Origin: Candidatus Uhrbacteria bacterium
Lineage (GTDB): Bacteria; Patescibacteriota; Patescibacteriia; UBA9934; GWF2-40-263
Assembly: GCA_016219925.1 (NCBI GenBank)
Contig: JACRJU010000013.1
Location: forward strand, 980-64,979
Reading direction: 5' to 3'
Length of the DNA stretch: 64,000 nt
Position numbers and translations under genes: made by a program. The notes under the pieces are model-generated. The model saw nothing but the letters and a program-made list of their open reading frames with translations. It did not search any database and was not told the DNA's origin. This document shows positions 5,438 through 55,403 of the stretch, one piece after another. Every line of letters starts with the position of its first letter. Position 1 is the first letter of the stretch.

Positions 5438-5438
5438 A

Positions 5439-35864: not shown

Positions 35865-35942
35865 GGATCGGTGGTGTAGCCCGGTTAACACGTCTCCCTG
35901 TCACGGAGAAGATCGCGGGTTCGAATCCCGTCCGGTCCGCCA
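35865..35942 (+). tRNA. tRNA-Asp (anticodon GTC), with encoded CCA
   Basis: Manual cloverleaf. Acceptor GGATCGG/CCGGTCC with one G-U. D-stem GTGT/ACAC. Anticodon stem TCTCC/GGAGA with loop CTGTCAC. T-arm GCGGG-TTCGAAT-CCCGT. Confidence 0.85.
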
Positions 35943-35948
35943 GAAAGT

Positions 35949-35980
35949 CGCTTCTGCAGACGCAGAGGCGTTTTTCTTTT
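35949..35980 (+). terminator. rho-independent terminator after tRNA-Asp
   Basis: CGCTTCTGC-AGAC-GCAGAGGCG stem followed by TTTTTCTTTT. Confidence 0.55.
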
Positions 35981-36017
35981 TATCTTCGCCGAATTCTGGA
36001 GTTCCAACTGATTTTCA

Positions 36018-36707
36018 TTAAAGAAACCTCTTTAATTCATCTTTTACCTCTTTTGAATACGAAGAATAGTTTTTGAAGTAATCGATTTGTGAATAGAGAT
36101 ATTCTAAAGGATCGCCGCAATCAAGATAATGCCCATCTAGAATTATAGTTGCCAGAAGACCAGTGTCCTCCTTCATAATATTTATGATGTCTGTAAGCCA
36201 AAGTTCACCATGTAGTCCTGGGACTGTTTTATCAAGTGCATCGAATACAGATGGCAACAGAACATAAGCACCATGTGTAGCAAAAGATGACGGCTCTTCA
36301 CCGAACTTTGGTTTTTCGACAATGCGAACGATCTCCTTTACGTTTTCTTCTCCGTTTATATCCTTAAATTCTGCCATTCCGTACCTGCTACGTTTTGTAG
36401 GATCTTTAATTTCTATAGCAGAAATAACTGGTTTTTTATATTTTTCAAATGTCTCTAAGCATTGCTGAATTCGAGGTTTATATTTTGAGATGATAATTTC
36501 GTCAGACCAGACAAGAACGAACGGCTCATCGGAAACGAGATGTCTCGCTGCTTCAAGCGCTCCTCCATTTCCATACGGTGGTTTAGTGTACACAAAACTA
36601 AAATTCGCCATCTCTGTAATACGCTTCAACTCAGTAACCTGGTCTTTTTTTCCAAGCTTCAGAAAGTAATCCTCAAGAATTTCATTTGGGGAGAAAAAAC
36701 TTTCTGC
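36018..36707 (-). pseudogene. 5'-truncated UTP-glucose-1-phosphate uridylyltransferase-like (GalU-type sugar nucleotidyltransferase) gene remnant
   Basis: Open frame ...ILEDYFLKLGKKDQVTELKRITEMANFSFVYTKPPYGNGGALEAARHLVSDEPFVLVWSDEII...IVEKPKFGEEPSSFATHGAYVL matches the central and C-terminal GalU motifs. The N-terminal GxGTRxLPxTK nucleotide-binding segment is absent. The frame is closed by a TGA at 36708-36710. Confidence 0.6.
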
Positions 36708-37120
36708 TCAGGAACAAAATGATGGATATTATATTTTTGAGCAAGTTCCCCATTTTTTTCTTGAAATTTAGGATCTGATCCGTCAAGAAAATAAATATCT
36801 TTCTTAGGATAATCTAAAGAGAAAAGACAAATAAATGTTGCTTCAAGGACACCGAGCGGTTCATTGCGTGCTGGCACTAAAACCGTGACATCGGGCAAGT
36901 TTTTTGTATCAAGTTTTACGCGTCGATAACGATTTGCATTTGGCTTTCCTAGTCGAATAATGCTAGTCAAAAATCCAAATGACTGTAGAATTGCGTGTCC
37001 TTCAGCAAAAAGTAGTAACAACCCAAAAAATACGTTTAAGATGCCTATGCTTTGTGAAGCATAGGTGTAAACACGAAATCCAAAATAGACTATTAGACTT
37101 CCTAACGCTAAACTCGCCAA
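36659..37120 (-). pseudogene. 3'-truncated family-2 glycosyltransferase (cellulose-synthase-like) N-terminal fragment
   Basis: Two or three N-terminal TM helices, then VTVLVPARNEPLGVLEATFICLFSLDYPKKDIYFLDGSDPKF (GT2 start). It stops after 153 aa, before the DxD and QxxRW motifs. It is one frame away from the galU-like fragment at an A6 run (36694-36699). Confidence 0.55.
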
Positions 37121-37304
37121 GTGTGTGTGTGTTGTCTCACATTCAACAATTCTATTGTGAAATTATATCATAAACGTGCGTCATTGGCTTTAGGTTTAAG
37201 TGATTTTCCCGGGGTTGGCGACGCAACAAAACTTAAATCTAAACCACCTCGTTGGGCTTTTCTACTCTGAAATAGGTTCCGACCCCTTCCACAACGTCCC
37301 GCCA

Positions 37305-37337
37305 GAAAAACAACCTGATTTCATCAGGTTGTTTTTT
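37305..37337 (-). terminator. bidirectional rho-independent terminator, serving the minus-strand gene 37435-37866
   Basis: AAAAA-CAACCTGAT-TTC-ATCAGGTTG-TTTTTTT: a perfect 9-bp stem flanked by an A-run and a T-run. Confidence 0.6.
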
Positions 37338-37434
37338 TACCCACGAATGCAAGGACGGAGTTCGAACTCCAGAGAGTTCGGAGGGTCGTTCCCCAAACTT
37401 TTAGGACGGAGGGGGAACCGCAAGAACAAAAATT

Positions 37435-37866
37435 TTAAAAATTCGGTTTTGATCTCATTTCTTTTTGTCGCTGTTGTAAACGTGAGAAACGTTCTTGAGC
37501 TTCCTGAACATTTTTCGTATTCATAAATTCTTTTGGAACACCAAATGCATCACAAATTCTTTGCCCGAATTTTGGTCCTTTATCCATCGTCCAATTTTCT
37601 ATTCCCTGTTTTACAACTTCCTCTATATCTCTGTTTGGAACGCGAAATAAATCTCTTATTTTGATTGCGGTTTCAAAATTATCACTTGAACGAGAGTCAA
37701 GAAGATGTTGTGTAATCCCACCGATAGCGGCATCTCTGACCTCATTATTATCCAGAATTTCAGACGGAATTGGACCGTCTCCAAGAGTTTTTAGGACTTC
37801 TTCCAAAAAACCGAATCGTAAATCTTCAACGATATCGTTGACCAATTTTTGAGTTTGTGGGTTCAT
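37435..37866 (-). CDS. hypothetical protein (143 aa) in an AT-rich island
   Basis: Clean ORF with a downstream terminator. No recognisable domain. The region is about 38 % GC against a roughly 50 % flank. Confidence 0.5.
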   Translation of the reverse strand: MNPQTQKLVNDIVEDLRFGFLEEVLKTLGDGPIPSEILDNNEVRDAAIGGITQHLLDSRSSDNFETAIKIRDLFRVPNRDIEEVVKQGIENWTMDKGPKFGQRICDAFGVPKEFMNTKNVQEAQERFSRLQQRQKEMRSKPNF

Positions 37867-37890
37867 AAATTTACGTTCGCTCCTTATTTT

Positions 37891-38823: not shown

Positions 38824-39723
38824 TTACTGAGGATTTGAGCCACCCCCTGTGCTGGCCGCGGGCGCGGGCGTTGTGACCGTTGTGTTGCCGGCTGTGCAGT
38901 TGTTGCTACAGGTCGGGTTCACGACAGCCGCGTTGCTGATGCCACCCGCGGGGATCGCGGAGGCACTGCTCGCAGCCGCGCCTGCCGGAATCGGCGAGGC
39001 GTTGCCCGTGTGGAAAGTCCCGATTCCCGTCGTGACCATCCACCACAGGCCGAACAGGAGGGCCAGTAGGATGATGATCGGCGCGGCGAAGGCGAGCGCC
39101 GAGAGGCCGCGGTCGGCCCAAGTGCGCCAGCGCGGCGGAGCCGGAGGGGCCGGTGGGGCAACCGGGCCGCCAGGTGCAGGCGGGGCACCGGGAGCCGGTC
39201 CCAGCACGATGTGCATCGGGATCGGCGGCGGCGGTGCGATGTGCACCGGCACGGGCACAACCGCCACGGCTGGGGCACCAAGCGCCGGAGGGGCCGGAGG
39301 CGCAGGCGGTGCTCCGGGTGCGATGGGCGGGGGCGCGACCGGCGGGAGAGCCGGAGGCGCAGGGGGTGCGCCAGGAACGGGCGGAGGCGCAGGCAGCGGC
39401 GGCGGTGCGGCCGCGAGAGCGACCACGTCCACGTCCTGCCCAGCCACCTCGGTCAGTAGGTCCGTTGTGCGGACCACGCCGAGATGGTAGTGGCCGGGCG
39501 CCTGGAAGCCCCGCGTGCTCCTGAAGGTCAGGTTCGAGGGGTGTCCGGCACCCACCGCACCGACGCGCGCGGTGTCGCGATCAATGACGATCGGGGCACC
39601 GGCCGGCGTGACGAGGAGCCGAAACTCCGCGCCTGGGGGGTTGTCCGGAGGAGTGACCTCCAACCGGACGGCGAGAGCCGAGCCCTCGACGATGTTGGGG
39701 GGCGCGTGAAGCGTAAACGCCAT
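38824..39723 (-). CDS. GC-rich Pro/Ala-rich membrane protein (N-terminal globular domain, PAPP-repeat linker, C-proximal TM)
   Basis: ATG at 39721-39723 with a perfect AGGAGG SD upstream. About 70 % GC. Long (PAPPx)n tract. TM LSALAFAAPIIILLALLFGLWWMV. Long antisense ORFs here are GC artefacts. Confidence 0.6.
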   Translation of the reverse strand: MAFTLHAPPNIVEGSALAVRLEVTPPDNPPGAEFRLLVTPAGAPIVIDRDTARVGAVGAGHPSNLTFRSTRGFQAPGHYHLGVVRTTDLLTEVAGQDVDVVALAAAPPPLPAPPPVPGAPPAPPALPPVAPPPIAPGAPPAPPAPPALGAPAVAVVPVPVHIAPPPPIPMHIVLGPAPGAPPAPGGPVAPPAPPAPPRWRTWADRGLSALAFAAPIIILLALLFGLWWMVTTGIGTFHTGNASPIPAGAAASSASAIPAGGISNAAVVNPTCSNNCTAGNTTVTTPAPAASTGGGSNPQ

Positions 39724-39867
39724 GGTTTCCTCCTGAATGGGTTTTTGTGACTCCTTACCAACGTGATAAAGAGCGTCCGAAACCGTTTCGGAACCCGAAA
39801 AAATAACACAAAAAAACGATTTTGTCAATCGTTTATACAAAAAACCCGCGATTTTCGCGGGTTTTTT

Positions 39868-41082: not shown

Positions 41083-41529
41083 ATGAAACAGGTCGCTTAT
41101 AATAAACGGGCCGGGTTTGACTTTGAACTTCTGGATAAACAGGAAGCGGGTTTGGTGTTAACCGGACCGGAAGTTAAAGCGGTTAAGGCCGGCCTGGTGC
41201 AATTTAAGGGAGCGTTTTTGGATATTCGGAAAGGGGAGTTGTGGCTCAAGAATGCGCATATCACTCCGTATGGTCCGGCCGCATCAGCCCAGCAGGGATA
41301 TGAACCAACGCGCGACCGTAAAGTGCTGGTTCATAAGCGGGAACTCAAGCGTTTGATTGGCAAGAAGCAAGCTGAAGGATTGACGCTGGTGCCCGTGAGT
41401 TTGTATATCAAGAACAATTTGGTGAAGCTTGAGTTTGCTGTGGCTCGTGGCAAAAAAAAATATGAGAAGCGCGAGGCGATCAAGAAGCGGGATGTGCAAA
41501 AGCAGATTCGTGAACGTTTGCGTGAATGA
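41083..41529 (+). CDS. smpB: SsrA-binding protein SmpB
   Basis: MKQVAYNKRAGFDFELLDKQEAGLVLTGPEVKAVKAG...KNAHITPY...VLVHKRE. Confidence 0.9.
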   Translation: MKQVAYNKRAGFDFELLDKQEAGLVLTGPEVKAVKAGLVQFKGAFLDIRKGELWLKNAHITPYGPAASAQQGYEPTRDRKVLVHKRELKRLIGKKQAEGLTLVPVSLYIKNNLVKLEFAVARGKKKYEKREAIKKRDVQKQIRERLRE

Positions 41530-41617
41530 TTTTTTCTCTCCTTTTCTTTCTCTTCTAAATCAAGCGAACAGGACAATGCCTGGTCGTTCTTATAACCTTT
41601 CTCTTTAACGTACAAAC

Positions 41618-41700
41618 GTCTTTTTGCGGTTTATGCCATGTCGGAGGGAACAGCGGCGAGGAGTCCGCTGGCCCGGAGACATGGCATAAACCGCAAGACA
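41618..41700. repeat. long perfect stem-loop, possibly an island-boundary element
   Basis: An 18-bp perfect inverted repeat: TGCGGTTTATGCCATGTC with GACATGGCATAAACCGCA. An inner CAGCGG/CCGCTG hairpin sits inside. It lies between smpB and the GC-rich gene. Confidence 0.6.
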
Positions 41701-41881
41701 ATACCGCCAACGATTGAAGAGATCGTTAGGGGACACTTTTGTCGACGTGTAGTCTGTGTTGAGGCGACAAAAGTTTGTCCCATCGATCTCGCTCACACCA
41801 GACGATAGGAGACAAAATGGAATGATAAATGAAGAGAGAAGGAGATAAAAAAATGAACCGCGGTGAAACGGTTCGGAGGGA

Positions 41882-42940
41882 TCAGCGGCTGAAGGGCCAG
41901 TGGCCGGCCGGTTTCTTGTCTTCGGTCTTGGCCATTGGTTTGTCTTTGACTTTGCCTTTCGGCTTGCCGGGCTTGTCTGTCTTGCCCGGCTTGCTCGGCG
42001 CAGTCGGCGGAGTCGCGTCGGCGGAAGGCTTGGTCTTGCCGTTGAATAAATCGACGAGCGAGATGTTCTGGACGGTGCGGTTGGGATCGTAGGCGCTGTG
42101 CTGGCCTTCGATGGCCTTCGCTCCGCCCTTTGGCATCTGTTCGTACAGGAACAGCGCGACCCCCTTGTAGTAGGGAGCGGCCGCCTGCAGGAAGCGCGTG
42201 ATCTGCGTCGCGCTCACCGATTTGCCGTAGGTCATGCCCACCGGGACGAGCGTGCACTCGTGTCCGGGGTGGTAGGCGCGCAGGGCATCGAACTGCCCCT
42301 GCGTGTAGGCGAGTGCGTTCTGCGGCGACATGTCGCGGAACAGCTTCCAGTAGCTCTGCGGCAGGAAGAAGTCCGCGTACTTGAGCGCGACGGCCCAAGG
42401 AACGTCTTTCCACTGCATGAGGTGCGGGAAGCTGGAGAAGGCGAGGATCGTCCACGGACGGGCATCCACCTGTTTGCGCAGTTGCGCGAATAGACGCTCC
42501 CAACGAGCTTTGGACTTGCCAAACAGCCCGAGGTCGTCGACGACGACGCCGTCAGCGCCCATCTCGAGCGTCCGAACGGCGAGCTGGATGGATTCGTCCA
42601 CGCTCGTGTCCGTCTTGAGCCGCGCAGTGAAGTACGAGTACACGCGCATCCCCTCCCCGTGGAATGCCGCAATGAGATCGCGCGAGATCGCCTCACGCCA
42701 CGTGCGACCCACGCGTGTGCCCCAGCTTCCGCCGTCGTGCGATTTCACGATGACGAAGTGGTAGCCAGCGTCGTGCACCGCCTTGGCGTAGGCCTTCGCC
42801 TGTTCGCCCTCGGTGTTGCCGACACTGCTCTTGTAGGTGAAGACTCCCAGGCCGCTCATGTGCGGCGGCAGGGTCTTTGGCTCGGCTTGCGCAGGAAGTG
42901 CGAGCGTGGCGAGCAGGACGAGGACGAAGGTGCGAACCAT
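41882..42940 (-). CDS. GC-rich secreted TIM-barrel glycoside-hydrolase-like protein (GH114/GHL-type) with a Lys/Pro-rich C-terminal tail
   Basis: Signal peptide MVRTFVLVLLATLALPAQA. TLEMGADGVVVDDLGLFG resembles the GH114/GHL motif. About 62 % GC. Located immediately downstream of the ssrA 3' end. Confidence 0.55.
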   Translation of the reverse strand: MVRTFVLVLLATLALPAQAEPKTLPPHMSGLGVFTYKSSVGNTEGEQAKAYAKAVHDAGYHFVIVKSHDGGSWGTRVGRTWREAISRDLIAAFHGEGMRVYSYFTARLKTDTSVDESIQLAVRTLEMGADGVVVDDLGLFGKSKARWERLFAQLRKQVDARPWTILAFSSFPHLMQWKDVPWAVALKYADFFLPQSYWKLFRDMSPQNALAYTQGQFDALRAYHPGHECTLVPVGMTYGKSVSATQITRFLQAAAPYYKGVALFLYEQMPKGGAKAIEGQHSAYDPNRTVQNISLVDLFNGKTKPSADATPPTAPSKPGKTDKPGKPKGKVKDKPMAKTEDKKPAGHWPFSR

Positions 42941-43059
42941 TGAAAGACCCCCTTAACCTGCGGAGAAACGTTCCGCAAGGGCTGTAACGTATATCAAAAA
43001 ATCGTTTTTGTCAATTAAGACTAAACAAAAATCACCGACGTTGTGTCGGTGATTTTTGT

Positions 43060-43450
43060 TGGTGGAGCTGGGGGGAATCGAACCCCCGTGTGGTAAGGCA
43101 TGGCCGTACGATGGTTCCAAGCTCATTCCCGCTTTGATCATCGCGCGCTTGAAGCGGGACAAAATGCGCGCGAGGGTGCCGGTCGCAACATCTTGACCGC
43201 GCGAGATCGGCGACCGCGCAGTCCAGCTCGAAGATATGACATTCGTGTTGAGCTATCGAGCTTCGCTCAGACGAACGGCTCTACAAACCCTTAGGCGAGA
43301 GCTGGGGCAAAAGAAGGAACGCGCAAAGCGTCCTTGATTTTCGCCATGACGTTGTTGGCAAGTATCGTCTTGCATGGAGAGATTTACGAGGTCCCATACG
43401 GCCTCGGCTTGATCACACGGTCAGGGACTCCCATCGAAACCGATCAGCCC
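43060..43450 (-). ncRNA. ssrA: tmRNA (transfer-messenger RNA)
   Basis: 5' GGGGCUGAUCGGUUUCGAUGGGAGU... and 3' ...CGGGGGUUCGAUUCCCCCCAGCUCCACCA (T-arm plus acceptor plus CCA), read on the minus strand. Predicted tag ORF GCC AAC AAC GUC AUG GCG AAA AUC AAG GAC GCU UUG CGC GUU CCU UCU UUU GCC CCA GCU CUC GCC UAA gives ANNVMAKIKDALRVPSFAPALA. A terminator hairpin follows at 43030-43059. Confidence 0.85.
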
Positions 43451-43562
43451 CAGGCGTCTCACTCTACGCATTTTTTTTCTTTCTGTCAATCAAACTGCCG
43501 CGCTTGTTCACACCCGCGCGTGATCAATTTTTGAAAATCCTGTATTATAACTATAACGTTCT

Positions 43563-44576
43563 ATGTCTTCCGAACACACGATCAGCATTTCGACCGGTAC
43601 CTTTTTTAAAGCCGTTCTCATCATTTTAGGGTTGTGGTTTTTGTGGTACATCCGCGACATCGTCGCGATGTTCGTGGTGGCGATCATGCTTTCCTCTTTG
43701 ATTGATCCGTTCGCGGATTGGTTTTCGAAGCACCGCATTCCACGCGGTCTTGCCGTTTTGATTGTTTATACCGTTCTGCTCGCGCTGGCGAGCGTCCTGA
43801 TTATTGTGATGATTCCGGTGGTCGTTCAGCAGTCGGGACAGCTTGTTGAAAATCTCTCCTCCAACTCAACCAACCTCGTAAATACCTTCGTGCAGTTTCA
43901 GCAGAGGCATCAATTTTTAGAAAGTTTTACCAGCGGGCTTCAATCGTTTCAGCAAAGTTTGAACACATCAGCCAATTCGGTCTTTTCTACGGTGAAAGGA
44001 TTTTTCGGTGGCGTGGCGGCCGTCCTGATTGTATTAGTTCTTACCTTTTATATGGTGGTTGAGGAGGATAGCATGCGTCGTTATTTCAAAACGCTCGCTC
44101 CGGAAGAATATCAGCCGTATCTCATGCAACTCATGAAAAAAATGCAGGACAAAATTGGAGCGTGGTTGCGCGGTCAGCTTATTTTAGGATTTTTTGTGGG
44201 CTTAGCGGTTTATATTGGTCTGAAGTTTTTAGGGGTTCCTTATGCGCTTCTTCTGGCTCTGATCGCGGGAGTGCTTGAGATCGTTCCATATGTTGGCCCG
44301 ATCATCTCTTTGATTCCGGCGGGGTTGATCGGATTTGCTCAATCGCCCGTTCTTGGTTTAGCCGTAGTGGTTTTGTACCTCGTCATTCAGCAGATTGAAA
44401 ATAATGTGCTCGTACCGAAAATCATGCAGACGGTGACCGGATTGAATCCTATCTTGAGCATCGCCGCTTTGCTCGTGGGGGTACAGGTGGGGGGATTTGT
44501 TGGCGCGCTTCTGGCTATTCCACTTGCCACCATGGTTGCCGTTGTGGCTGAAGATGTTTTTAAAGGATTGGTATGA
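43563..44576 (+). CDS. AI-2E family transporter (PerM/YdiK-type, UPF0118)
   Basis: Seven or eight TM helices. Topology and motifs typical of AI-2E (e.g. FVVAIMLSSLIDPFADWF..., LALIAGVLEIVPYVGPIISLIPAGLIGFAQS). Confidence 0.8.
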   Translation: MSSEHTISISTGTFFKAVLIILGLWFLWYIRDIVAMFVVAIMLSSLIDPFADWFSKHRIPRGLAVLIVYTVLLALASVLIIVMIPVVVQQSGQLVENLSSNSTNLVNTFVQFQQRHQFLESFTSGLQSFQQSLNTSANSVFSTVKGFFGGVAAVLIVLVLTFYMVVEEDSMRRYFKTLAPEEYQPYLMQLMKKMQDKIGAWLRGQLILGFFVGLAVYIGLKFLGVPYALLLALIAGVLEIVPYVGPIISLIPAGLIGFAQSPVLGLAVVVLYLVIQQIENNVLVPKIMQTVTGLNPILSIAALLVGVQVGGFVGALLAIPLATMVAVVAEDVFKGLV

Positions 44577-46502: not shown

Positions 46503-47582
46503 ATGAAAAAAATCGATTGGCGGCTGATGATCTATCCGATTCTGATTTCTCTCGTCCTTGGATTGGGCGCGGGCATTTTGGGCACCGCATGGACATCGTC
46601 ATATCTTTCAGATTACGCCGTTCAATTAAATGAACTGACCGCGCCTCTTCGCCTTTCTGCGCAGAAGCCTCGTAACTTTCCGTCTTCCTATAAAGAGGCT
46701 GTTGATGATTTTGTATCGCAGACTTTGCCAAGCGTGGTTCAGGTGTATCGTGACGCGTCGGGTGCGCTGGGATATCGGCAGGATGAGGCGGATCGTGTGG
46801 GCATGGTGCTCACCACGGACGGATGGGTGGGAATTGAAAGTGGACGAACAGCTCCGGCGTCGCTGATGGAGTCGCGTATTCACGTCAATAATCAATGGCT
46901 TTCCGTGCAGGCACAAAAGTTCGATCCGGTGACAGGGATCATTTTTGTGAAAGTAGAGGCAGATCATTTGCCGGTGGTGTCTTTGGGGAAGGGGCGGGAA
47001 GCCCATCGAGGCGAGCAGGTTTTCGTTGTTGAAGATGCCGCGGGATTTGTCGTGGCTTCCGTCAAAGGGGAAGAGTGGGCGCAAGACGGATCGGTCAGCT
47101 CTGATGAACCCAACCGTTTGCTCACGCTCGATCGCGATGTTCAACCTGGAAGTTTGGTTTTTAATTTGAGCGGAGAGGTGATTGGACTGGTGCGCACGGA
47201 TCACGCGGTCTTGCCCATCGAAGCCATGACACCATCGTTCAAATCTTTGCTTGAGCATCAAACCATTTCACGCCCGACACTCGGGGTGATGGCCGTGGAT
47301 CTTTCCCATGGGCTTGATATATCTGCGACGCTGACTTCCGGGCACACGACCGGCGCCCTGCTATACGGATCGGGATCGCTTGTGCGTTCCGGTGCGGCGC
47401 GTCAAGCCGGTCTCAAACCTTCCGACATCATCCTTTCCGTGAACGATGAATCCGTGGACGCTTCACACACCCTTGATGAACTCATCGAACAATATCGTCC
47501 GGGCGATCAAGTGCGTCTGCAAGTTGAACGCGCCAAAGTGGGGCAGACCATCACGGTCACATTGGGCGAGCGCGCGCCTTGA
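46503..47582 (+). CDS. HtrA-like protein with C-terminal PDZ, apparently catalytically degenerate
   Basis: N-terminal TM. Trypsin-like fold remnants. A PGSLVFNLSGEVIGL segment occupies the position of GNSGGPLVNLAGEVIG. No His in the (VLTTDGWVG) region that aligns to the TNAHVV motif. PDZ: GALLYGSGSLVRSGAARQAGLKPSDIILSVND. Confidence 0.6.
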   Translation: MKKIDWRLMIYPILISLVLGLGAGILGTAWTSSYLSDYAVQLNELTAPLRLSAQKPRNFPSSYKEAVDDFVSQTLPSVVQVYRDASGALGYRQDEADRVGMVLTTDGWVGIESGRTAPASLMESRIHVNNQWLSVQAQKFDPVTGIIFVKVEADHLPVVSLGKGREAHRGEQVFVVEDAAGFVVASVKGEEWAQDGSVSSDEPNRLLTLDRDVQPGSLVFNLSGEVIGLVRTDHAVLPIEAMTPSFKSLLEHQTISRPTLGVMAVDLSHGLDISATLTSGHTTGALLYGSGSLVRSGAARQAGLKPSDIILSVNDESVDASHTLDELIEQYRPGDQVRLQVERAKVGQTITVTLGERAP

Positions 47583-47713
47583 GGTATAATAAAGACGTAG
47601 TGAACACTTTTACCCCTCGAGCCGTGTTTACCCCCCGAGCCTGTCGAGGGGGTATGGACTGCACCGCATTGCGAGCACAGCCTTCGATAGGCTCAGGCGA
47701 TAAGAGATCCCAT

Positions 47714-48346
47714 ATGTCCGCGAATCATCTCAAAACACTATCCGCAGGTTGGCAAACGATTTTGATGTTTGGTTTGTTGGGACTCGTGTTTGCGCTTATC
47801 GTCTCTTTTGTTCAGCCGCTTCAGTATGGTTCAACGGCGCGCCTCTTGATTTTGCAAGACGTGGGTTCTTCGGTGGATGCGTATACGGCTTCGCGCTCCG
47901 AGGAGCGTATCGCGGAAAATCTTTCCACGATTATTTACACGAGTACTTTTTTGGATCAGGTGCTCTCGGCCGGGTTTGATATTCGCGCGAATACGTTTCC
48001 TACGGATTCGGCCAATCGCCGTCGGGCTTGGCATAAGGCTGTGACCGCAACGGTTTCGCGCGGTTCGGGATTGCTTACGATTTCCGCCTATGACCAGGAT
48101 GTGAGGCAGGCCGAGCAGGTCGTTCGGGCTGTGGCTTTTGTTTTGACCGGACGGGTGGGGGAGTTTACTTCTGGGGGAAATGTGCAAGTTCGATTGATTG
48201 ATGCTCCGCTCAATTCGCGCTGGCCGGTCCGGCCAAATATTTTTGCAAATACCCTGACCGGATTGATTTTGGGAGGATTTGTTGGGATAGCCGTTGTCTT
48301 GGTTCAAACGGAAAAGATTCGTCGGAGGCATCAACTGCACGGATAA
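47714..48346 (+). CDS. Wzz/YveK-like polysaccharide chain-length-determinant family protein (short form)
   Basis: ATG 47714 (MSANHLKTLSAGWQTILMFGLLGLVFALIVSFVQPLQYGSTARLLI). C-terminal TM. The track ORF from 47579 overlaps the upstream gene. Confidence 0.6.
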   Translation: MSANHLKTLSAGWQTILMFGLLGLVFALIVSFVQPLQYGSTARLLILQDVGSSVDAYTASRSEERIAENLSTIIYTSTFLDQVLSAGFDIRANTFPTDSANRRRAWHKAVTATVSRGSGLLTISAYDQDVRQAEQVVRAVAFVLTGRVGEFTSGGNVQVRLIDAPLNSRWPVRPNIFANTLTGLILGGFVGIAVVLVQTEKIRRRHQLHG

Positions 48347-48853: not shown

Positions 48854-50341
48854 ATGGAGGAAGCCATGAAGACGTTGTGCCAGTTCGTTTTCGCCGTGAG
48901 TCTGCTCGTCGGCGCCACCGCCGCGTTCGCGGCCCCCCCCAAGCCCACGGCCGACTGCGGCCTGGACAAGGACGGCGACGGTTGGTGCGTGCCGGATCCG
49001 AGCCGCACCATGCCCGACCCGGCCGACCCCAGCAAGAGCAAGCCGTTTCATCTCGGCAAGCTCGACTGCAACGACGCCGACCCGGCCGTTCACCCCGGCG
49101 CCAAGGAAATCGTCGGCAACGGGATCGACGAGGACTGTGACGGTGAAGACGCCGAAGCCCCGGCCTACGCGAAGAACTTCGGGTGCGACCCGAAGAACGC
49201 GAAGTGTTTGGCGGTCTTGGCCAAGGAGATCAAGGCGTGCGACGGCAAGACCGGCTGTGCCGTGAACTACACGGCCGGCAAGTTCGTCACCGGCTTCGGC
49301 TTCTACTTCATCGACACCGACTGCGACGGCGTGCGCGAGCTTGTCAATCAGGCCGGGAAGGACAAGCACGACGCCGAGATCGCGGCCGGGAAGCACTGCG
49401 TGCGACCCGCCGGGACGACGCATCGCCCGCACCACAAGGGGAAGGCCAAGCCGAAGTACGCCGTCGCTCCTCTCCCCGTCGATCCCACCCGGGTCGACGC
49501 GCTCGAGAAGGGAGCCGGCGAGCTCCGAGATGACGTCGACGGTCTCGATGACCGGCTCGACGACGTCGAAGAGCTCGCGGCCGACGGGGCCAAGCGCCTC
49601 GATGACCTCAACGGAGCCCTCAAGGCCGAAGCCAAGGCCCGTGAGGCCGCGGACAAGGCAGAGGCCGAGGCCCGCAAGGCCGCCGACAGCGCTCTGGGCG
49701 ACCAGATCGCGATCGTCAAGGGCCAGGCCGCGACGGCTCACCGGGTCGCCGTGGCCGCGGGCACCCGCGCCGAAGACGCCGCCTCCGCCGCCGCCGTCGC
49801 CAACAGCGCCGGCGTCAACGCGGGGTTCAACGTCGGCGTGGCTCTCAAGGGCCAGGCCGACATCCACCTGAAAAGTGGAGTGGCGCGGGGAGGCTTCGCT
49901 CCCATGCTCCTCGTCGGCGGTCACGTCGGCGCGGAGCTCCCGTCCGGGATCTACCGCCTCCTCGGCGCCGTCGGCCTCCCCTTCGAGGAAGGTCCAAGCG
50001 GCAACACCGAGCGCGGGATGTTCTGGACGGTCGGTGGCGAGACGCTCTTCAAGCTCGCCCCCGGCTCCGCGCACGCGCTCGGGCTCATCGTCCGGTACGT
50101 CGACCACGAAAGTGGTGGTGACGTCCTGGGCGTCAACGCTCGGTCGCGCGGCGGCGGAGGCGGCGTCGCGTACGAGTACGCGTCCGGCTCGGGATGGTTG
50201 CGCACCCCAGTGCACGTCAGCCTCGAAGGGGGCGGCGAGCAGTTGGGCTCCCAGGGCAGTCAGTTTCGTGCCCTGGGCAACGCCGCCTTCGCCATGCTGA
50301 CCCTCACGGTCGGTGGCGGAACCGGTGCGCTCACCCGCTAG
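48854..50341 (+). CDS. GC-rich secreted protein. Signal peptide, MopE-like Cys/Asp metal-binding-type repeat, coiled-coil, Gly-rich C-terminal domain
   Basis: Signal peptide MEEAMKTLCQFVFAVSLLVGATAAFAAP. CNDADPAVHPGAKEIVGNGIDEDCDG motif. About 68 % GC. The long antisense ORF 48692-50215 is treated as a GC artefact. Confidence 0.7.
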   Translation: MEEAMKTLCQFVFAVSLLVGATAAFAAPPKPTADCGLDKDGDGWCVPDPSRTMPDPADPSKSKPFHLGKLDCNDADPAVHPGAKEIVGNGIDEDCDGEDAEAPAYAKNFGCDPKNAKCLAVLAKEIKACDGKTGCAVNYTAGKFVTGFGFYFIDTDCDGVRELVNQAGKDKHDAEIAAGKHCVRPAGTTHRPHHKGKAKPKYAVAPLPVDPTRVDALEKGAGELRDDVDGLDDRLDDVEELAADGAKRLDDLNGALKAEAKAREAADKAEAEARKAADSALGDQIAIVKGQAATAHRVAVAAGTRAEDAASAAAVANSAGVNAGFNVGVALKGQADIHLKSGVARGGFAPMLLVGGHVGAELPSGIYRLLGAVGLPFEEGPSGNTERGMFWTVGGETLFKLAPGSAHALGLIVRYVDHESGGDVLGVNARSRGGGGGVAYEYASGSGWLRTPVHVSLEGGGEQLGSQGSQFRALGNAAFAMLTLTVGGGTGALTR

Positions 50342-50869
50342 GCCTCTGCGCGGCGCGGCTCGCCTCCTCCCGAGTGCGCGCCGTCATCACGCCGGTTGTC
50401 CCCCGACCGGCACTGGGTGACCCCGCCTCCCGCGCAGTTCGACTTCGGTCGGCTGTGCGGGGGCGGGGAAACCTGGACCTCTCATCAGCTTTTGCTGATC
50501 CTGGCTCCACACACCTACTCGTGTGGAGACCTCGTACGAGAAGTTGAGTCATTTATTGCCCGAGCTTGTCGAGGGCTGTAGATGGATCATTCGACTTCTG
50601 ATATGAGGAGAACGAACATCTTTGCCATACTGTCCTGTCATCCTGAGCGAAGCGAAGGATCTCGCGTTTCTAGAGATTCTTCAGTCACTGCTGATGGAGT
50701 TATATCGACCGAAGGATCCCAAGGTGTAAAGCTGGGGAAAGCAGGATGATTGATCGCCACCCGCTGGTGTTCAGCCATCCTGTTTTCCCCGGACCCTGAC
50801 CCATGGTGGGTTCGGGGGCGGATTGGACAGAGAGAAGTCCACGGGGAGGCCCGTGGCAGGAGGAGATCC

Positions 50870-51757
50870 ATGAACCGTACCACCACCACGTCGTTCGTCT
50901 TCGCCGTACTCGCGGCCTTCGCCCTCACCGCCTGCGGAGGCGTCCAGGCCGATTGGGACCAGCCCGACGGCACCTCGGCCGATGCGGGCGCCAAGCCCGA
51001 CAGCGAGTCCAGCGGCGGCGAGGTCTCGACCACCGCGACGTGCAACCCGGCGATCCAGGACTGCGACGGCGACGGACGCATCGGCCAGGCCGACTGCGGC
51101 CCGTACGACCCGAGCGTCTACGCCGGTGCCCCCGAGCTGTGCGACGGCAAGGACAACAACTGCGACGGTCACACCGACGAGGGATGCCCTGCCAAGCCGG
51201 CCGCAGCGGCCGACTCCGACGGGGACGGCTACCCGGACGGGCCGCAGGACTGCGCTCCGTCCAACCCATCGGTGCACCCGGGCGCGACCGAGATCTGCGA
51301 CGGCGTCGACAACAACTGCGACGGCGTCACCGACGAGGGATGCTCGGCGGCCACAATCCCGCCCGGCAACGAGGCGAAGCTCTCGTGTACGTTCACCTTC
51401 ACGACGGACCGGCAACGGACCGTCAACGTGCAGGCGTACGACACCAAGGCCGACCTCGGCAAGTGGTGGGACTCGAGCCAGACCGGCTCGGGCAAGTCCA
51501 TCACGGTCGAGCTCCCGCAGGTGCCCAAGGACATCTGCGGGTTCCGCCTCAACACGGCGGAAGGCAACCCGCCGACCGACTGGTTCTGCGAGGGCAACGG
51601 CTCCACAGCCAACCTCGACCCGTCGACCAGCGTGAGCTGTGTCTTCGACGGGAAGTCCGCGACGAAGTCCGGGCTCAAGACTTGGTCGGCCCCCGGCGGA
51701 ACCAACGCCGGCTGCAGCGCCGTCTGGGTCGTGACCCCCAGCGCCAACTGCTGGTAG
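50870..51757 (+). CDS. GC-rich lipoprotein with two MopE-like repeats and a C-terminal beta-rich domain (paralog)
   Basis: AGGAGA RBS. Lipobox MNRTTTTSFVFAVLAAFALTAC. DCGPYDPSVYAGAPELCDGKDNNCDGHTDEGC and DCAPSNPSVHPGATEICDGVDNNCDGVTDEGC. C-terminal LGKWW...WSAPGG motif shared with 52207-53205. Confidence 0.7.
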   Translation: MNRTTTTSFVFAVLAAFALTACGGVQADWDQPDGTSADAGAKPDSESSGGEVSTTATCNPAIQDCDGDGRIGQADCGPYDPSVYAGAPELCDGKDNNCDGHTDEGCPAKPAAAADSDGDGYPDGPQDCAPSNPSVHPGATEICDGVDNNCDGVTDEGCSAATIPPGNEAKLSCTFTFTTDRQRTVNVQAYDTKADLGKWWDSSQTGSGKSITVELPQVPKDICGFRLNTAEGNPPTDWFCEGNGSTANLDPSTSVSCVFDGKSATKSGLKTWSAPGGTNAGCSAVWVVTPSANCW

Positions 51758-51877
51758 GTCACAACGATCCCTTCTGCCCACTGCGTCTTCCAACCGGTGG
51801 GCGCTTTTTTTTGTCAGACATTTGTGACTTTTAGTCAAAAATTGCCGTTTTTATTACAAAATACGCGTTTGGATGGC

Positions 51878-51906
51878 TTGACAAATCGGCTATTTTATGA
51901 TATATT
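51878..51906 (+). promoter_or_regulatory. strong sigma70-like promoter (TTGACA, 17 nt, TATATT) driving the R2 leader
   Basis: TTGACA at 51878-51883, a 17-nt spacer, and TATATT at 51901-51906. An AT-rich block inside the GC-rich island. Confidence 0.55.
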
Positions 51907-51934
51907 AATCTGTTCCCAAAATGAGGGAATGGAT

Positions 51935-52195
51935 CCGGTTTCTCTCTGCACTAAGTTCTTAAACTCGTTACTTTGTCATGTTGTGTCTTTGCGAGGAGGC
52001 CGGTCGAATGACCGGACGACGAAGCAAACTCGAGATTGCTTCGGTCGCTTGAACCTCCCTCGCAATGACAACAGTTTGAGACTTGAGTGCAGAGAGACAA
52101 CCATCCCTCCGGGGTGGCTCTGTGGCATACAGCTGAGACGGGATTTCCCCCGCTTCGGTACCGTGTGTCAGATATCCCCCGGAGGGGGAGTAGTT
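51935..52195 (+). promoter_or_regulatory. structured 5' leader / repeat element R2, a copy of R1
   Basis: TCTCTCTGCAC (51941-51951) pairs with GTGCAGAGAGA (52093-52103). The core 52086-52190 is 104/105 identical to 48746-48850. Here an additional AGGAGG SD lies 8 nt upstream of ATG 52207. Confidence 0.65.
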
Positions 52196-52206
52196 AGGAG
52201 GAAAAG

Positions 52207-53205
52207 ATGAAGAAGCTCCTGTCCGCTTTCGCCGCGAGCCTTCTGCTCGTCGGCGCAACCGTCGTGCTGAACGCCTGTGAGGGCGTTTCGGCCACCTACA
52301 CCACGCCCGAGCCGACCATCGAGTCGGTCGACGCGGGACCGTCGTCCGTCGACGCGGCCAGCGCCGACAAGGGTTCGTCCGTCGACGCCGCTCCGGCGCC
52401 CGACGCGGTCACGTCGACGCACCCGTGCGTCGACAACGACCACGACGGGTACTGCGTCGTCAACGCCAAGGGCGAGCCAGTCGACTGCAACGACTCGCCG
52501 CTCGACAAGGACGGCGACGGGATTGTGGACGGATTCCCGATCCACCCCGGCGCCGCCGAGATCTGCAACATGATCGACGACAACTGCGACGGCCACACCG
52601 ACGAGGGCCTCGAGAAGGTCCTCAACTACGTGGACGGCGACAACGACGGCTACGGCGACATCAACGACCCGGGTGCGGAGACCTGCCTCGCGCAGGGATT
52701 CGTCACCGACAACGGGGACTGCGACGACAACGCCGCCAACATTCACCCCGGCGCCCCGGACAAGCCCAACGACGGCATCGACTCCGACTGCGACGACGAG
52801 TCGCAGAAGGAGAATGCTCCGCCCACGGAGACGGCCGTCCATGGCGTCCTGACCGTGCAGGTCCCCAACAAGGCGGCACTGGTGCTCTCGTACCAGTTCG
52901 CCAAGTCGGAAGATCTGCTCGGCAAGTGGTGGGAGCCGGACGTCGCCAAGGCAGAGAACGGCGATGAGGTAGGCACGTCGTTCGTGATGTCCAAGGACAT
53001 CGCGTTCGTGCGCCTCAACGTCACGATCGGCACCGGCGACGCGGCCACCTGGCTGTGCTCCGGCTCGGGCAACGACGCGGCGCTCCTCAAGGACGCCAAG
53101 GTGAAGCTCGAGTTCGGCGGCGGCGCGCTCGTCGGCGAACCCTACCTGTGGTCCGCCCCAGAAGGCGGCTGCAGCGTCGTCTTCCCGATCGCCTACCTCG
53201 AGTAG
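52207..53205 (+). CDS. GC-rich lipoprotein with MopE-like repeats and the shared C-terminal domain (paralog)
   Basis: Lipobox MKKLLSAFAASLLLVGATVVLNAC. CNDSPLDKDGDGIVDGFPIHPGAAEICNMIDDNCDGHTDEG. C-terminus LLGKWWEPD...LWSAPEGGCSVVF. Confidence 0.72.
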   Translation: MKKLLSAFAASLLLVGATVVLNACEGVSATYTTPEPTIESVDAGPSSVDAASADKGSSVDAAPAPDAVTSTHPCVDNDHDGYCVVNAKGEPVDCNDSPLDKDGDGIVDGFPIHPGAAEICNMIDDNCDGHTDEGLEKVLNYVDGDNDGYGDINDPGAETCLAQGFVTDNGDCDDNAANIHPGAPDKPNDGIDSDCDDESQKENAPPTETAVHGVLTVQVPNKAALVLSYQFAKSEDLLGKWWEPDVAKAENGDEVGTSFVMSKDIAFVRLNVTIGTGDAATWLCSGSGNDAALLKDAKVKLEFGGGALVGEPYLWSAPEGGCSVVFPIAYLE

Positions 53206-53298
53206 GCTTCCTCGGGCGCTCTACACGCCCCCTGACCCCGGCGCCCACCTGCCCCATCGCTCTAGATGGAACGCAGGTGGGTGTCCGGGGTCTTGTTA

Positions 53299-53327
53299 TT
53301 GACAAAATCTTCGTTTCCTGATAAAAA
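53299..53327 (+). promoter_or_regulatory. sigma70-like promoter candidate (TTGACA, 17 nt, TAAAAA)
   Basis: TTGACA at 53299-53304 and TAAAAA at 53322-53327. Followed by a GCCCTCG ... CGAGGGC inverted repeat in the leader. Confidence 0.4.
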
Positions 53328-53490
53328 AAGCCCTCGCTCATTATCAACAGACCTCTATGCTTTTGGTCTTGATTCGGCTTGTTTTGCCTAAAATCGAGGG
53401 CAGTTGCGTGGAGATCTAGGCGGCCAAGCAGGGAAAGTCCCTGCCTGTGTTGCCAAGAAGAGTCCCCAAGCAGGGGGCAAGGAGTTCGTG

Positions 53491-55176: not shown

Positions 55177-55403
55177 CCTCGGCCTCACTAGACTCGGTGC
55201 GGACACAGCGGTATTATCCGCTTCGTCGTCCGCACCGAGTCGCTCTTTTTCCTCTTAGTCTAAACAAAGCGATCAGAATCGACACGATACGTTGTTATTA
55301 AAGAACGCATCATGTCGGGGTTGATCGGTTTCAACAACGACCGGTTCACGGGCGGTCACCCGTGTCACTGCCGTCCATGAGTATGGGTGGCTGGGAGGTG
55401 GCC

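What the first reader, a model, noticed from the sequence alone, without database searches (positions are those of the whole stretch)
41530..43060. GC-rich secreted hydrolase-like gene inserted between smpB and the 3' end of ssrA, with an 18-bp perfect hairpin at the far boundary
smpB (41083-41529, plus strand) and the tmRNA gene (43060-43450, minus strand) are normally adjacent. Here 1.5 kb of foreign-looking DNA separates them.
- It holds an 83-nt element with an 18-bp perfect stem (41620-41700).
- It holds a ~62 % GC gene (41882-42940, minus strand) for a signal-peptide TIM-barrel protein whose motif resembles GH114/GHL glycoside hydrolases, plus a K/P-rich tail.

The 3' end of ssrA is one of the most frequent integration sites for genomic islands and prophages. 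No integrase remains, which suggests an old or decayed island. A secreted polysaccharide hydrolase acquired at this site could be relevant to host or biofilm interaction.
Basis: partly seen in the sequence, partly recalled or inferred. Interest (0 to 1): 0.65.

Follow-up and report, generated by a model that had tools for sequence, protein, structure and literature searches.

The report
Hypervariable secreted glycosidase-like gene between smpB and ssrA
The GC-rich gene between smpB and the tmRNA gene is not a decayed genomic island: it encodes a secreted sugar-cleaving-type enzyme that sits at this spot in a dozen related Uhrbacteria, and its sequence has been swapped between lineages.

Summary
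smpB (41083-41529, +), ssrA (43060-43451, -), a 352-aa GC-rich gene (41882-42940, -; GC 63.5%, GC3 0.83) and a perfect hairpin (19 bp, 41624-41696) are all there.

The ssrA-island reading fails its own refutation test. Eleven other Uhrbacteria carry the gene in the same smpB-ssrA interval, always GC3-richer than its neighbours. There is no integrase and no displaced ssrA fragment. ssrA lies in either orientation among the relatives.

Outgroup CPR genomes have smpB and ssrA adjacent, so the interval was opened secondarily. In this clade it holds this gene, an M1 peptidase, an IS transposase, hypothetical ORFs or nothing.

The gene tree conflicts with the flanks. Species with 94-96% identical SmpB+InfC carry alleles only 40-42% identical, and the drop is confined to the gene. 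This fits an integrase-free exchange hotspot.

The protein has a signal peptide, a (β/α)8 barrel and a disordered Lys/Pro tail. Its nearest folds are Cwp19 (GHL10) and PgaB (GH153). It matches no Pfam family, GH114 and GHL10 included.

The hairpin lies in a 318-nt insertion unique to this genome, of unknown function.

The parts
41083..41529 (+). smpB (148 aa)
   Evidence: Pfam SmpB, E 6.5e-49. It is 60-80% identical to SmpB of the related Uhrbacteria loci.
41530..41847 (.). Lineage-specific 318-nt insertion between the smpB stop codon and the A-run and terminator of the glycosidase-like gene
   Evidence: The stop-to-stop spacer is 352 nt here and 29-76 nt in all 11 relatives. It folds at -136 kcal/mol, z = -7.6 against shuffles. 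No similar sequence was found in the window, 98 related loci, Rfam, phage records or viral contigs.
41624..41696 (.).
   Evidence: Inverted repeat I2. It is unique in the window, with 0.02 matches expected by chance.
41719..41790 (.). Second, imperfect hairpin (26-nt arms, 81% complementary, 20-nt loop)
   Evidence: Inverted repeat I1.
41848..41874 (-). Intrinsic terminator of the glycosidase-like gene (7-bp GC-rich stem followed by T7)
   Evidence: Terminator scan. Relatives have the same layout, with an A-run and hairpin directly after the smpB stop.
41882..42940 (-). CDS of the 352-aa secreted TIM-barrel glycosidase-like protein (100% identical to HZA85_02675, Candidatus Uhrbacteria)
   Evidence: ORF list and 19 homologue clusters. 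GC 63.5%, GC3 0.83. Syntenic in 11 relatives.
42884..42940 (-). Signal peptide (residues 1-19, MVRTFVLVLLATLALPAQA)
   Evidence: Direct reading: basic n-region, hydrophobic core, AQA then E. Equivalent N-termini occur in the homologues. No predictor was run.
42041..42859 (-). (beta/alpha)8 barrel domain (residues ~28-300)
41885..42040 (-). Lys/Pro-rich disordered C-terminal tail (residues 301-352)
   Evidence: 13 Lys and 10 Pro in the last 53 residues. pLDDT is below 50 for residues 307-352. The tail varies in length and sequence among homologues.
42941..43023 (-). 5' region of the gene: Shine-Dalgarno AAGGGGG (42948-42954) and a -35-like TTGACA (43009-43014)
   Evidence: Direct reading of the sequence. 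The promoter assignment is an inference: the -10 is weak and the scan did not list it.
43024..43060 (-). Perfect 16-bp hairpin abutting the 3' end of ssrA, terminator-like
   Evidence: Inverted repeat I3/I1. On the minus strand it is followed by a T-run.
43060..43451 (-). ssrA (tmRNA), intact; the tag reading frame is 43291-43359
   Evidence: Rfam RF00023, 117.7 bits, model positions 1-374 of 374. Tag ANNVMAKIKDALRVPSFAPALA*.
43461..43489 (-). sigma-70-like promoter of ssrA (TTGACA, 17-nt spacer, TAGAGT)
   Evidence: Promoter scan, 10 of 12 matches. It ends 10 nt upstream of the tmRNA 5' end.
43563..44576 (+). AI-2E family transporter gene, the conserved far flank of the variable interval
   Evidence: Pfam AI-2E_transport, E 4.1e-68. 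It flanks ssrA in all relatives with enough sequence.

Best explanation
The 1.5 kb between smpB and ssrA is an old, clade-wide cargo site in a lineage of Candidatus Uhrbacteria. It is not the remnant of an integrase-mediated ssrA island.

The ancestral layout was AI-2E(-) smpB(+) ssrA(+) infC(+), with smpB and ssrA adjacent. A single inversion of the smpB-ssrA pair produces the layout seen here (inferred). After that, the smpB-ssrA intergenic gap became a place where cargo is gained, lost and exchanged.

Its commonest occupant is the gene at 41882-42940. It has its own Shine-Dalgarno sequence, a promoter-like site and a terminator. It encodes a Sec-exported (beta/alpha)8 glycoside-hydrolase-like enzyme with a basic, disordered Lys/Pro tail.

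I infer three further steps:
- The enzyme works outside the cell on a GlcNAc/MurNAc-type glycan, either peptidoglycan or a PNAG-like exopolysaccharide. Acidic residues at the end of strand beta-4 (D135/D136 in the invariant GADGVVVDDLG motif) would be catalytic.
- The cationic tail holds the enzyme on an anionic cell surface.
- Alleles are replaced by double homologous recombination in the conserved flanks (smpB on one side, ssrA/AI-2E on the other). This would explain why closely related species carry very different alleles, why no mobility gene is present, and possibly, through GC-biased gene conversion, why GC3 is raised.

The 19-bp hairpin belongs to a separate, recent 318-nt structured insertion at the 3'-3' junction. 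Its function is unknown.
For: **Shown: synteny**
- The gene sits between smpB and ssrA in 11 distinct relatives.
- Outgroups have smpB followed by ssrA at gaps of 11-284 nt.
- The same interval holds other cargo in related genomes. L018/L019 carry an M1 aminopeptidase, L031 an rve-type transposase plus two ORFs, and L022 hypothetical ORFs.
- The interval holds no cargo ORF in L017, L020, L025, L034 and L044.

**Shown: no island signature**
- No ssrA fragment repeat. The best local score is 14, it lies inside the CDS, and the null maximum is 15. An Islander-style BLASTN of ssrA against the window finds nothing.
- ssrA orientation differs among gene-carrying relatives.

**Shown: tree incongruence**
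- L002/L004 have SmpB+InfC 96% identical and the gene 42% identical.
- L010/L012 have 94% and 40%.
- L004/L010 have 86% and 75%.
- L002/L004 nucleotide identity is about 0.8 in both flanks and 0.38-0.60 only inside the gene, with edges at its start and stop.
- Two sequence types (FTFKSS and FTWQET) are polyphyletic on the flank tree.
- The window protein is type-A-like in residues 17-115 and type-B-like in residues 148-273.

**Shown: composition**
- The family gene is the GC3-richest gene of its neighbourhood, or tied for it, in every locus.

**Shown: protein**
- TIM barrel, pLDDT 81.
- The best neighbour overall is a phage protein, A0A6J5L5X0 (E 1.3e-14, TM 0.78).
- Distant family members carry fn3, Ig, PKD, dockerin and Por_Secre_tail modules, which are typical of secreted carbohydrate-active enzymes.
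- Invariant residues lie at the C-terminal ends of the beta-strands.

**Literature**
- Cwp19's GHL10 domain is a peptidoglycan lytic transglycosylase (PMC6016235).
- Many HGT hotspots lack mobile elements and turn over by recombination in flanking core genes (PMC5635113).
- Recombining bacterial genes have raised GC3 (PMC4450053).
Against: - No sequence-level link to any characterised family was found.
- The catalytic residues are a guess. D135/D136 are invariant only within the Uhrbacteria subfamily; the wider family reads D-A-E at that position.
- The trees are neighbour-joining on short alignments. The gene-tree clades have poor bootstrap support, and the flank tree has no support values.
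- Ancient paralogy with differential loss, or extreme diversifying selection, could mimic allele exchange.
- All relatives are metagenome-assembled contigs, so chimeric assembly is possible.
- The gBGC explanation of GC3 does not obviously cover remote homologues at other loci (L097, L098).
- Cargo in L022 and L031 is not GC3-rich.
Confidence: 0.6

Rival explanations
1. First reader's model. The gene is the cargo of an old genomic island or prophage that integrated into the 3' end of ssrA through a tyrosine integrase, then lost its integrase and attachment repeat.
For: - In the window the ssrA 3' end faces the gene, 120 nt away.
- The gene is GC-rich relative to the backbone.
- smpB and ssrA are adjacent in outgroups.
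- tmRNA genes are well-known island targets (PMC4383910).
Against: - No integrase and no displaced ssrA fragment.
- The same gene sits at the same place in 11 relatives.
- In L001, L002, L004 and L006 the ssrA 5' end faces the gene.
- In the ancestral layout the ssrA 3' end pointed away from smpB, so a 3'-end insertion would not lie between the two genes.
- The GC3 excess is family-wide, including at unrelated loci.
Confidence: 0.04
2. Strictly vertical inheritance. The gene entered the interval once in the clade ancestor and has since only diverged very fast, through diversifying selection on a surface enzyme, and been lost several times. There was no lateral exchange of alleles.
For: - The position is conserved in all carriers.
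- The window gene's identities to L016, L001 and the remaining carriers rank in the same order as SmpB identities.
- The gene-tree branches have weak support.
Against: - Sister species with 94-96% identical flanking proteins carry alleles 40-42% identical. More distant pairs (86% flanks) share 75% identity in the gene.
- The two motif types, with their linked indels, are polyphyletic.
- At least five independent clean losses are needed, and no gene remnant is left in the empty or replaced intervals.
Confidence: 0.2
3. The barrel is not a glycoside hydrolase. It could be another TIM-barrel enzyme, for example a phosphodiesterase of the GDPD type, or a non-catalytic glycan-binding protein.
For: - The only marginal sequence hits are a GP-PDE motif (E 0.0034, one beta-alpha-beta unit) and ComA (E 0.061).
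- Dihydroorotate dehydrogenases also appear among the Foldseek hits.
Against: - The accessory domains of distant relatives are those of secreted carbohydrate-active enzymes.
- A conserved acidic beta-4 motif and aromatic residues (Y197, W198, Y238, W274) line the barrel mouth.
Confidence: 0.12
4. The hairpin-bearing 318-nt spacer is a non-autonomous mobile element (MITE-like) or a small structured RNA gene that landed in the convergent 3' junction. It is unrelated to the glycosidase-like gene.
For: - It is present only in this genome.
- It has nested inverted repeats and very stable folding, z = -7.6.
- Outer CT-rich and GA-rich tracts are complementary at 16 of 18 positions.
- A possible 4-bp ATGA duplication flanks it (direct reading).
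Against: - No second copy in the 64-kb window or in 98 related loci, and no match in Rfam, phage records or viral contigs.
- The terminal repeats are low-complexity sequence, and a 4-bp duplication is easily chance.
- No promoter-like site was found in it.
Confidence: 0.35

Closest known systems
Cwp19 catalytic domain of Clostridioides difficile (GHL10, Pfam02638; PDB 5OQ2), a peptidoglycan lytic transglycosylase (PMC6016235)
   Different: - Only 14% identity, and no Pfam02638 hit even at E <= 1.
- No hit in PDB sequence searches.
- Attachment would be through a disordered Lys/Pro tail rather than CWB2 repeats.
- The activity of the window protein is untested.
PgaB/BpsB C-terminal domain (GH153), the PNAG-cleaving glycoside hydrolase of biofilm machinery (PDB 4P7O, 6AU1)
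   Different: 9-12% identity. The window protein is not fused to a deacetylase domain, and no pga-like operon surrounds it. The neighbours are smpB, ssrA and an AI-2E transporter gene.
GH114 / DUF4015-type GHL families
   Same: Same broad class of TIM-barrel glycosidase-like proteins, with a 'DG..(V/I)..D' motif at strand beta-4.
   Different: No hit to these Pfam families for the window protein (E <= 1) or for 70 diverse family members (E <= 1e-3).
tRNA/tmRNA-integrated genomic islands as defined by Islander (PMC4383910)
   Same: The gene lies next to ssrA and is compositionally deviant.
   Different: There is no tyrosine integrase and no displaced ssrA fragment. The gene is conserved in place across a clade and occurs with either ssrA orientation.
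Integrase-free HGT hotspots between core genes that turn over by homologous recombination in the flanks (PMC5635113)
   Same: The interval is bounded by conserved genes and its content varies among relatives: five different states. Most variants have no mobility genes. Allele phylogeny conflicts with flank phylogeny.
   Different: That concept was described within species of cultured bacteria. Here the pattern is seen across species of an uncultured CPR lineage. Recombination in the flanks was not measured here.

Membership tests
ssrA-integrated genomic island (Islander definition, PMC4383910) | Tyrosine integrase gene inside or at the edge of the island | tested here: not met
   The interval holds one ORF with no Pfam hit. 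The flanking genes are smpB, infC and rplT on one side and the AI-2E gene on the other, all syntenic with relatives.
ssrA-integrated genomic island (Islander definition, PMC4383910) | Displaced fragment of the ssrA 3' end marking the far boundary | tested here: not met
   The best local alignment of the last 45 nt of ssrA within 41401-43059 scores 14 with gaps, lies inside the CDS, and the null maximum is 15. BLASTN of the whole ssrA against the window finds only a weak match (29 nt, 79% identity, E 0.25) to the 3' end of tRNA-Val.
ssrA-integrated genomic island (Islander definition, PMC4383910) | Insertion on the 3' side of ssrA | tested here: inconclusive
   This holds in the window, L009, L010, L012 and L014. 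In L001, L002, L004 and L006 the 5' side of ssrA faces the same gene.
Recently acquired foreign DNA | Absent from the same site in related genomes | tested here: not met
   The gene is present at the same site in 11 distinct relatives.
Recently acquired foreign DNA | Composition deviates from the host, and this deviation is specific to this genome | tested here: not met
   The gene deviates here (GC3 0.83 against about 0.55). Every orthologue and two remote homologues deviate in the same direction in their own genomes.
GH114 (Pfam Glyco_hydro_114) | Significant match to the family profile | tested here: not met
   hmmscan against Pfam-A at E <= 1 returns only ComA (E 0.061, below its cut-off). 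None of 70 family members matches at E <= 1e-3.
GHL10 (Pfam02638; Cwp19-type) | Significant match to the family profile | tested here: not met
   No Pfam hit. PDB sequence and profile searches do not find Cwp19.
GHL10 (Pfam02638; Cwp19-type) | Same fold as the solved catalytic domain | tested here: met
GHL10 (Pfam02638; Cwp19-type) | Peptidoglycan-cleaving (lytic transglycosylase) activity | not testable with these tools
   Needs a zymogram or muropeptide analysis of the recombinant protein.
(beta/alpha)8 glycoside-hydrolase-like superfold | Eight-stranded barrel with conserved polar and aromatic residues at the C-terminal strand ends | tested here: met
   Model pLDDT 81, with eight strand-helix units. 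Invariant K66, H68, D69, R99, Y101, D130, D135, D136, H173, Q195, Y197, W198 and Y238 fall at or just after strands beta-2 to beta-7.
Sec-secreted protein | N-terminal signal peptide with an AXA cleavage motif and no lipobox | tested here: met
   Direct reading of residues 1-22, supported by conservation of equivalent N-termini in the homologues. No dedicated predictor was available.
Integrase-free HGT hotspot (PMC5635113) | Variable gene content between conserved flanking genes across related genomes | tested here: met
   Five content states occur between smpB and ssrA in one clade.
Integrase-free HGT hotspot (PMC5635113) | Phylogenetic incongruence or recombination at the locus | tested here: met
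   The gene identity matrix conflicts with the flank identity matrix. The identity drop is confined to the gene. Recombination in the flanking genes themselves was not tested.
MITE (for the 318-nt spacer) | Multiple copies in the genome with terminal inverted repeats and target-site duplication | tested here: inconclusive
   There is a single copy in the 64-kb window and none in 98 loci. The terminal repeats match at 16 of 18 positions but are low-complexity, and the 4-bp ATGA duplication is ambiguous. The rest of the genome was not available.

The most novel reading that the evidence does not exclude
The smpB-ssrA interval of this Uhrbacteria clade may be a trans-species exchange cassette for a secreted cell-wall or exopolysaccharide hydrolase. 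Divergent, mosaic alleles would then be kept by diversifying selection, for example as determinants of partner or host specificity, or as inter-bacterial weapons, in these presumed episymbionts. Cassette turnover would be coupled to repeated inversion of ssrA through inverted duplications of cargo ends, as in L019. The family-wide GC3 excess would be the footprint of GC-biased gene conversion at a recombination hotspot.
Probability: 0.15. Interest if true: 0.65.

Novelty: new member of a known kind. Interest (0 to 1): 0.35.

Why it matters
As an ssrA island, the finding does not stand.

Three things remain useful.
- There is an uncharacterised, Pfam-less family of secreted TIM-barrel glycosidase-like proteins: 239 representative clusters at E <= 1e-3, including one phage member found by structure. 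Its nearest solved folds are a peptidoglycan lytic transglycosylase and a PNAG hydrolase. CPR bacteria are thought to live attached to other cells, so such an enzyme is a reasonable candidate for cell-surface remodelling or attack.
- The locus is a clear, integrase-free example of a gene-turnover and allele-exchange site in a CPR lineage. It lies next to tmRNA, with repeated ssrA inversion.
- It is a caution against a common heuristic. GC deviation next to ssrA is not sufficient evidence of a recent island.

Tried and rejected
- ARAGORN on the window found no tmRNA. Rfam did.
- Pfam, NCBIfam and PHROGs scans of the protein and of distant relatives gave no informative family.
- PDB sequence searches with both profiles returned nothing, or only a one-motif GP-PDE match.
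- The afdb50 fold library was not available.
- A search for an ssrA 3' direct repeat and for Islander-style fragments found none.
- The spacer and hairpin were searched in the window, 98 loci, Rfam at E <= 10, phage records and viral contigs. Nothing turned up beyond chance miRNA-like hairpin hits far below threshold.
- tblastx of the spacer against the loci, looking for a decayed ORF, found nothing.
- The family HMM against six-frame translations of gene-less intervals, looking for pseudogene remnants, found none.
- Family searches in viral contigs and phage records found none. A broad alignment was too divergent to use as a pattern search.
- Cluster look-up for taxon names of distant homologues returned no names.
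- I considered whether high GC3 is general to secreted proteins of this genome. It is not: two other signal-peptide genes have GC3 of 0.51-0.54.
- No inverted repeats flank ssrA in the window that could explain its inversion. Only the terminator hairpin is there.
Full report
**1. Observation**

The window comes from a Candidatus Uhrbacteria (CPR) metagenome-assembled genome. The protein encoded at 41882-42940 (-) is 100% identical to HZA85_02675.

- smpB at 41083-41529 (+) matches Pfam SmpB at E 6.5e-49.
- A full-length tmRNA lies at 43060-43451 (-), Rfam RF00023 at 117.7 bits. ARAGORN missed it. Its tag frame reads ANNVMAKIKDALRVPSFAPALA*.
- The 352-aa ORF has GC 63.5% and GC3 0.83. smpB has 49% and 0.54, and backbone genes have GC3 of about 0.44-0.66.
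- The hairpin has a perfect 19-bp stem (41624-41642 / 41678-41696) and is unique in the window.
- A second, imperfect hairpin follows at 41719-41790.

**2. Is it an island at the ssrA 3' end? No.**

That is what I found.

- Contigs encoding homologues P0004, P0009, P0014, P0017, P0002 and P0003 were recovered. So were loci from species-representative genomes and from a metagenome scan with SmpB.
- Together they give eleven distinct relatives (L001, L002, L004, L006, L009, L010, L012, L014, L015, L016, L032).
- Where the contig reaches far enough, the order is AI-2E, ssrA, [gene], smpB, infC, rpmI, rplT.
- In every one the gene is GC3-richer than its neighbours: 0.48-0.74 against 0.24-0.47 for smpB. 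It is the GC3-richest gene of its locus, or tied for it.
- Two remote homologues at unrelated loci (L097, L098) show the same excess.
- No copy of the ssrA 3' end exists at the far boundary or anywhere in the 64 kb.
- There is no integrase.
- In L001, L002, L004 and L006 the gene faces the 5' end of ssrA.

These are the defining features of tDNA islands (PMC4383910), and none is met.

**3. What the comparison shows instead**

The SmpB scan returned 80 loci.

*Ancestral state.* In the more distant ones (SmpB 48-57% identical) the order is AI-2E(-), smpB(+), ssrA(+), infC(+), rplT(+). ssrA lies 11-284 nt after smpB.

*Derived state.* In the clade containing the window the order is rplT(-), infC(-), smpB(+), [X], ssrA(+/-), AI-2E(+). 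One inversion of the smpB-ssrA pair would produce this (inference).

*Contents of X:*

| Content | Loci |
|---|---|
| No cargo ORF (gaps 54-473 nt) | L017, L020, L025, L034, L044 |
| This gene | window and eleven relatives |
| M1 aminopeptidase | L018, L019 |
| rve-type transposase plus two ORFs | L031 |
| Unrelated hypothetical ORFs | L022 |

. Gene-less intervals hold no remnant of the gene.

*ssrA orientation.* On a neighbour-joining tree of SmpB+InfC, which has no support values, ssrA orientation relative to smpB changes at least four times. L018 and L019 are close relatives with ssrA inverted relative to each other. L019 carries a 419-bp, 98.3% identical inverted duplication of the peptidase 3' end on both sides of ssrA.

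**4. The gene does not track its flanks**

| Pair | SmpB+InfC identity | Gene identity |
|---|---|---|
| L002 / L004 | 96% | 42% |
| L010 / L012 | 94% | 40% |
| L004 / L010 | 86% | 75% |

- Along the L002/L004 alignment, nucleotide identity is about 0.8 in AI-2E, ssrA, orf170, smpB and infC. It falls to 0.38-0.60 exactly between the gene's start and stop.
- Two sequence types, with linked indels, are polyphyletic on the flank tree. One has the N-terminal motif FTFKSS and the other FTWQET.
- The window protein resembles the first type in residues 17-115. It resembles the second type, especially L015/L016, in residues 148-273. This suggests a mosaic.
- Bootstrap support in the gene tree is poor, so I rely on the identity matrices and the sharp boundaries rather than on tree topology.

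The pattern is that of integrase-free hotspots that turn over by homologous recombination in the flanking core genes (PMC5635113). Raised GC3 in recombining genes is documented in bacteria (PMC4450053). I did not test that link here, and it does not obviously explain the remote homologues at other loci.

**5. The protein**

*Family searches.* Pfam, NCBIfam and PHROGs give no family. PDB sequence searches give nothing. A profile search of 1.84 billion representatives finds 239 proteins at E <= 1e-3 and only 8 at E <= 1e-30. In 70 of these the catalytic region has no Pfam domain. The accessory domains are fn3, Ig, PKD, dockerin, CARDB and Por_Secre_tail.

*Structure.* AlphaFold2 on the 19-sequence alignment gives a (beta/alpha)8 barrel (pLDDT 81) and a disordered tail from residue 307.
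- Foldseek ranks the PgaB C-terminal domain first (E 1.4e-8), then GH27/GH36 alpha-galactosidases.
- Against viral models the best hit is an uncharacterised Caudovirales protein (E 1.3e-14, TM 0.78, 21% identity).
- Cwp19's GHL10 domain is a peptidoglycan lytic transglycosylase (PMC6016235).

*Active-site face.* Invariant residues (K66, H68, D69, R99, Y101, D130, D135, D136, H173, Q195, Y197, W198, Y238) sit at the C-terminal strand ends.

*Expression signals.* The gene has a strong Shine-Dalgarno sequence, a -35-like TTGACA and its own terminator.

*Inference.* It is a Sec-exported glycan hydrolase or lyase acting on a GlcNAc/MurNAc-type polymer, held at the surface by its cationic tail. Fold-level resemblance to GHL10/GH153 is shown. 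Family membership is not, and the substrate is unknown.

**6. The hairpin**

In all relatives the smpB stop codon is followed directly by an A-run and one GC-rich hairpin, which is the terminator of the convergent gene. The stop-to-stop distance is 29-76 nt.

In the window the same A-run and terminator are present at 41848-41874, but 318 nt have been inserted between them and the smpB stop.

The insert folds far better than shuffles, z = -7.6. It consists of nested inverted repeats, with outer CT/GA tracts and two inner hairpins. It has no counterpart in the window, the 98 loci, Rfam, phage records or viral contigs.

It is a recent, lineage-specific event, separate from the arrival of the gene. 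A MITE-like element, an sRNA gene or a recombination scar all remain possible.

**7. Verdict**

The island mechanism is refuted. The idea that the smpB-ssrA gap is a site of gene traffic is supported, though in a different form: an old, integrase-free hotspot with allele exchange.

The protein is a new, uncharacterised member of the TIM-barrel glycosidase-like class. Interest is moderate.

Noticed in passing
window 48854-57536 (+): Five tandem genes encode signal-peptide or lipobox proteins with Cu-binding_MopE motifs (PF11617). They have GC 65-69% and GC3 0.87-0.92, against about 0.55 for the backbone. They lie between a Wzz-like gene (47579-48346) and a Wzy_C gene (57637-59187). This is a larger compositional anomaly than the finding itself.
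   Followed up: partly
window 35943-37890: An AT-rich 1.9-kb segment (36-41% GC, ORF GC3 0.27-0.31) lies between tRNA-Asp (35865-35942, +) and rluB. It holds an N-terminally truncated NTP_transferase ORF (36018-36629, -). In relatives L002, L004 and L006, tRNA-Asp lies about 100 nt after rluB and in the other orientation. No tRNA fragment repeat was found. This is a better candidate for recent foreign DNA than the finding.
   Followed up: partly
L019 4048-4466 / 5176-5594, and L018 5431-5835: ssrA is inverted between two closely related genomes. In L019 it is bracketed by a 419-bp, 98.3% identical inverted duplication of the M1 peptidase 3' end, the structure expected of a segment that inverts by recombination. 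The repeat runs to the contig end, so an assembly artefact is not excluded.
   Followed up: partly
loci: ssrA orientation relative to smpB changes at least four times within one Uhrbacteria clade. In the outgroups it is always co-oriented and adjacent.
   Followed up: partly
window 43060-43451: ARAGORN fails to call this tmRNA, although Rfam scores it at 117.7 bits and the tag frame is intact. tmRNA-based island finders that rely on ARAGORN would miss the locus.
   Followed up: yes
all loci with a family member: The glycosidase-like family gene is the GC3-richest gene of its neighbourhood, or tied for it, in every genome examined. This includes remote homologues in unrelated contexts (L097, L098). 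The cause is unresolved: gBGC, selection or repeated transfer.
   Followed up: partly
window 38824-39840 (-): A Pro/Ala-rich 338-aa ORF at 69% GC (up to 79% locally) has no Pfam hit. An unannotated ORF of 260-305 aa occupies the same place between rplT and rluB in relatives.
   Followed up: no
L002 5367-5879, L004 5368-5880, L006 5269-5778: A conserved 170-aa ORF with no Pfam hit (83-86% identical among these three) lies between ssrA and the glycosidase-like gene. It is found only in this subclade and is absent from the window. It is also GC3-elevated in L002 and L004, 0.59-0.60.
   Followed up: partly
BFVD entry A0A6J5L5X0: An uncharacterised 255-aa protein of an uncultured Caudovirales phage is the closest structural neighbour of the barrel (Foldseek E 1.3e-14, TM 0.78, 21% identity). 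It matches far better than any solved structure, so the family probably has phage members. No close relatives were found in viral contigs or phage records.
   Followed up: partly
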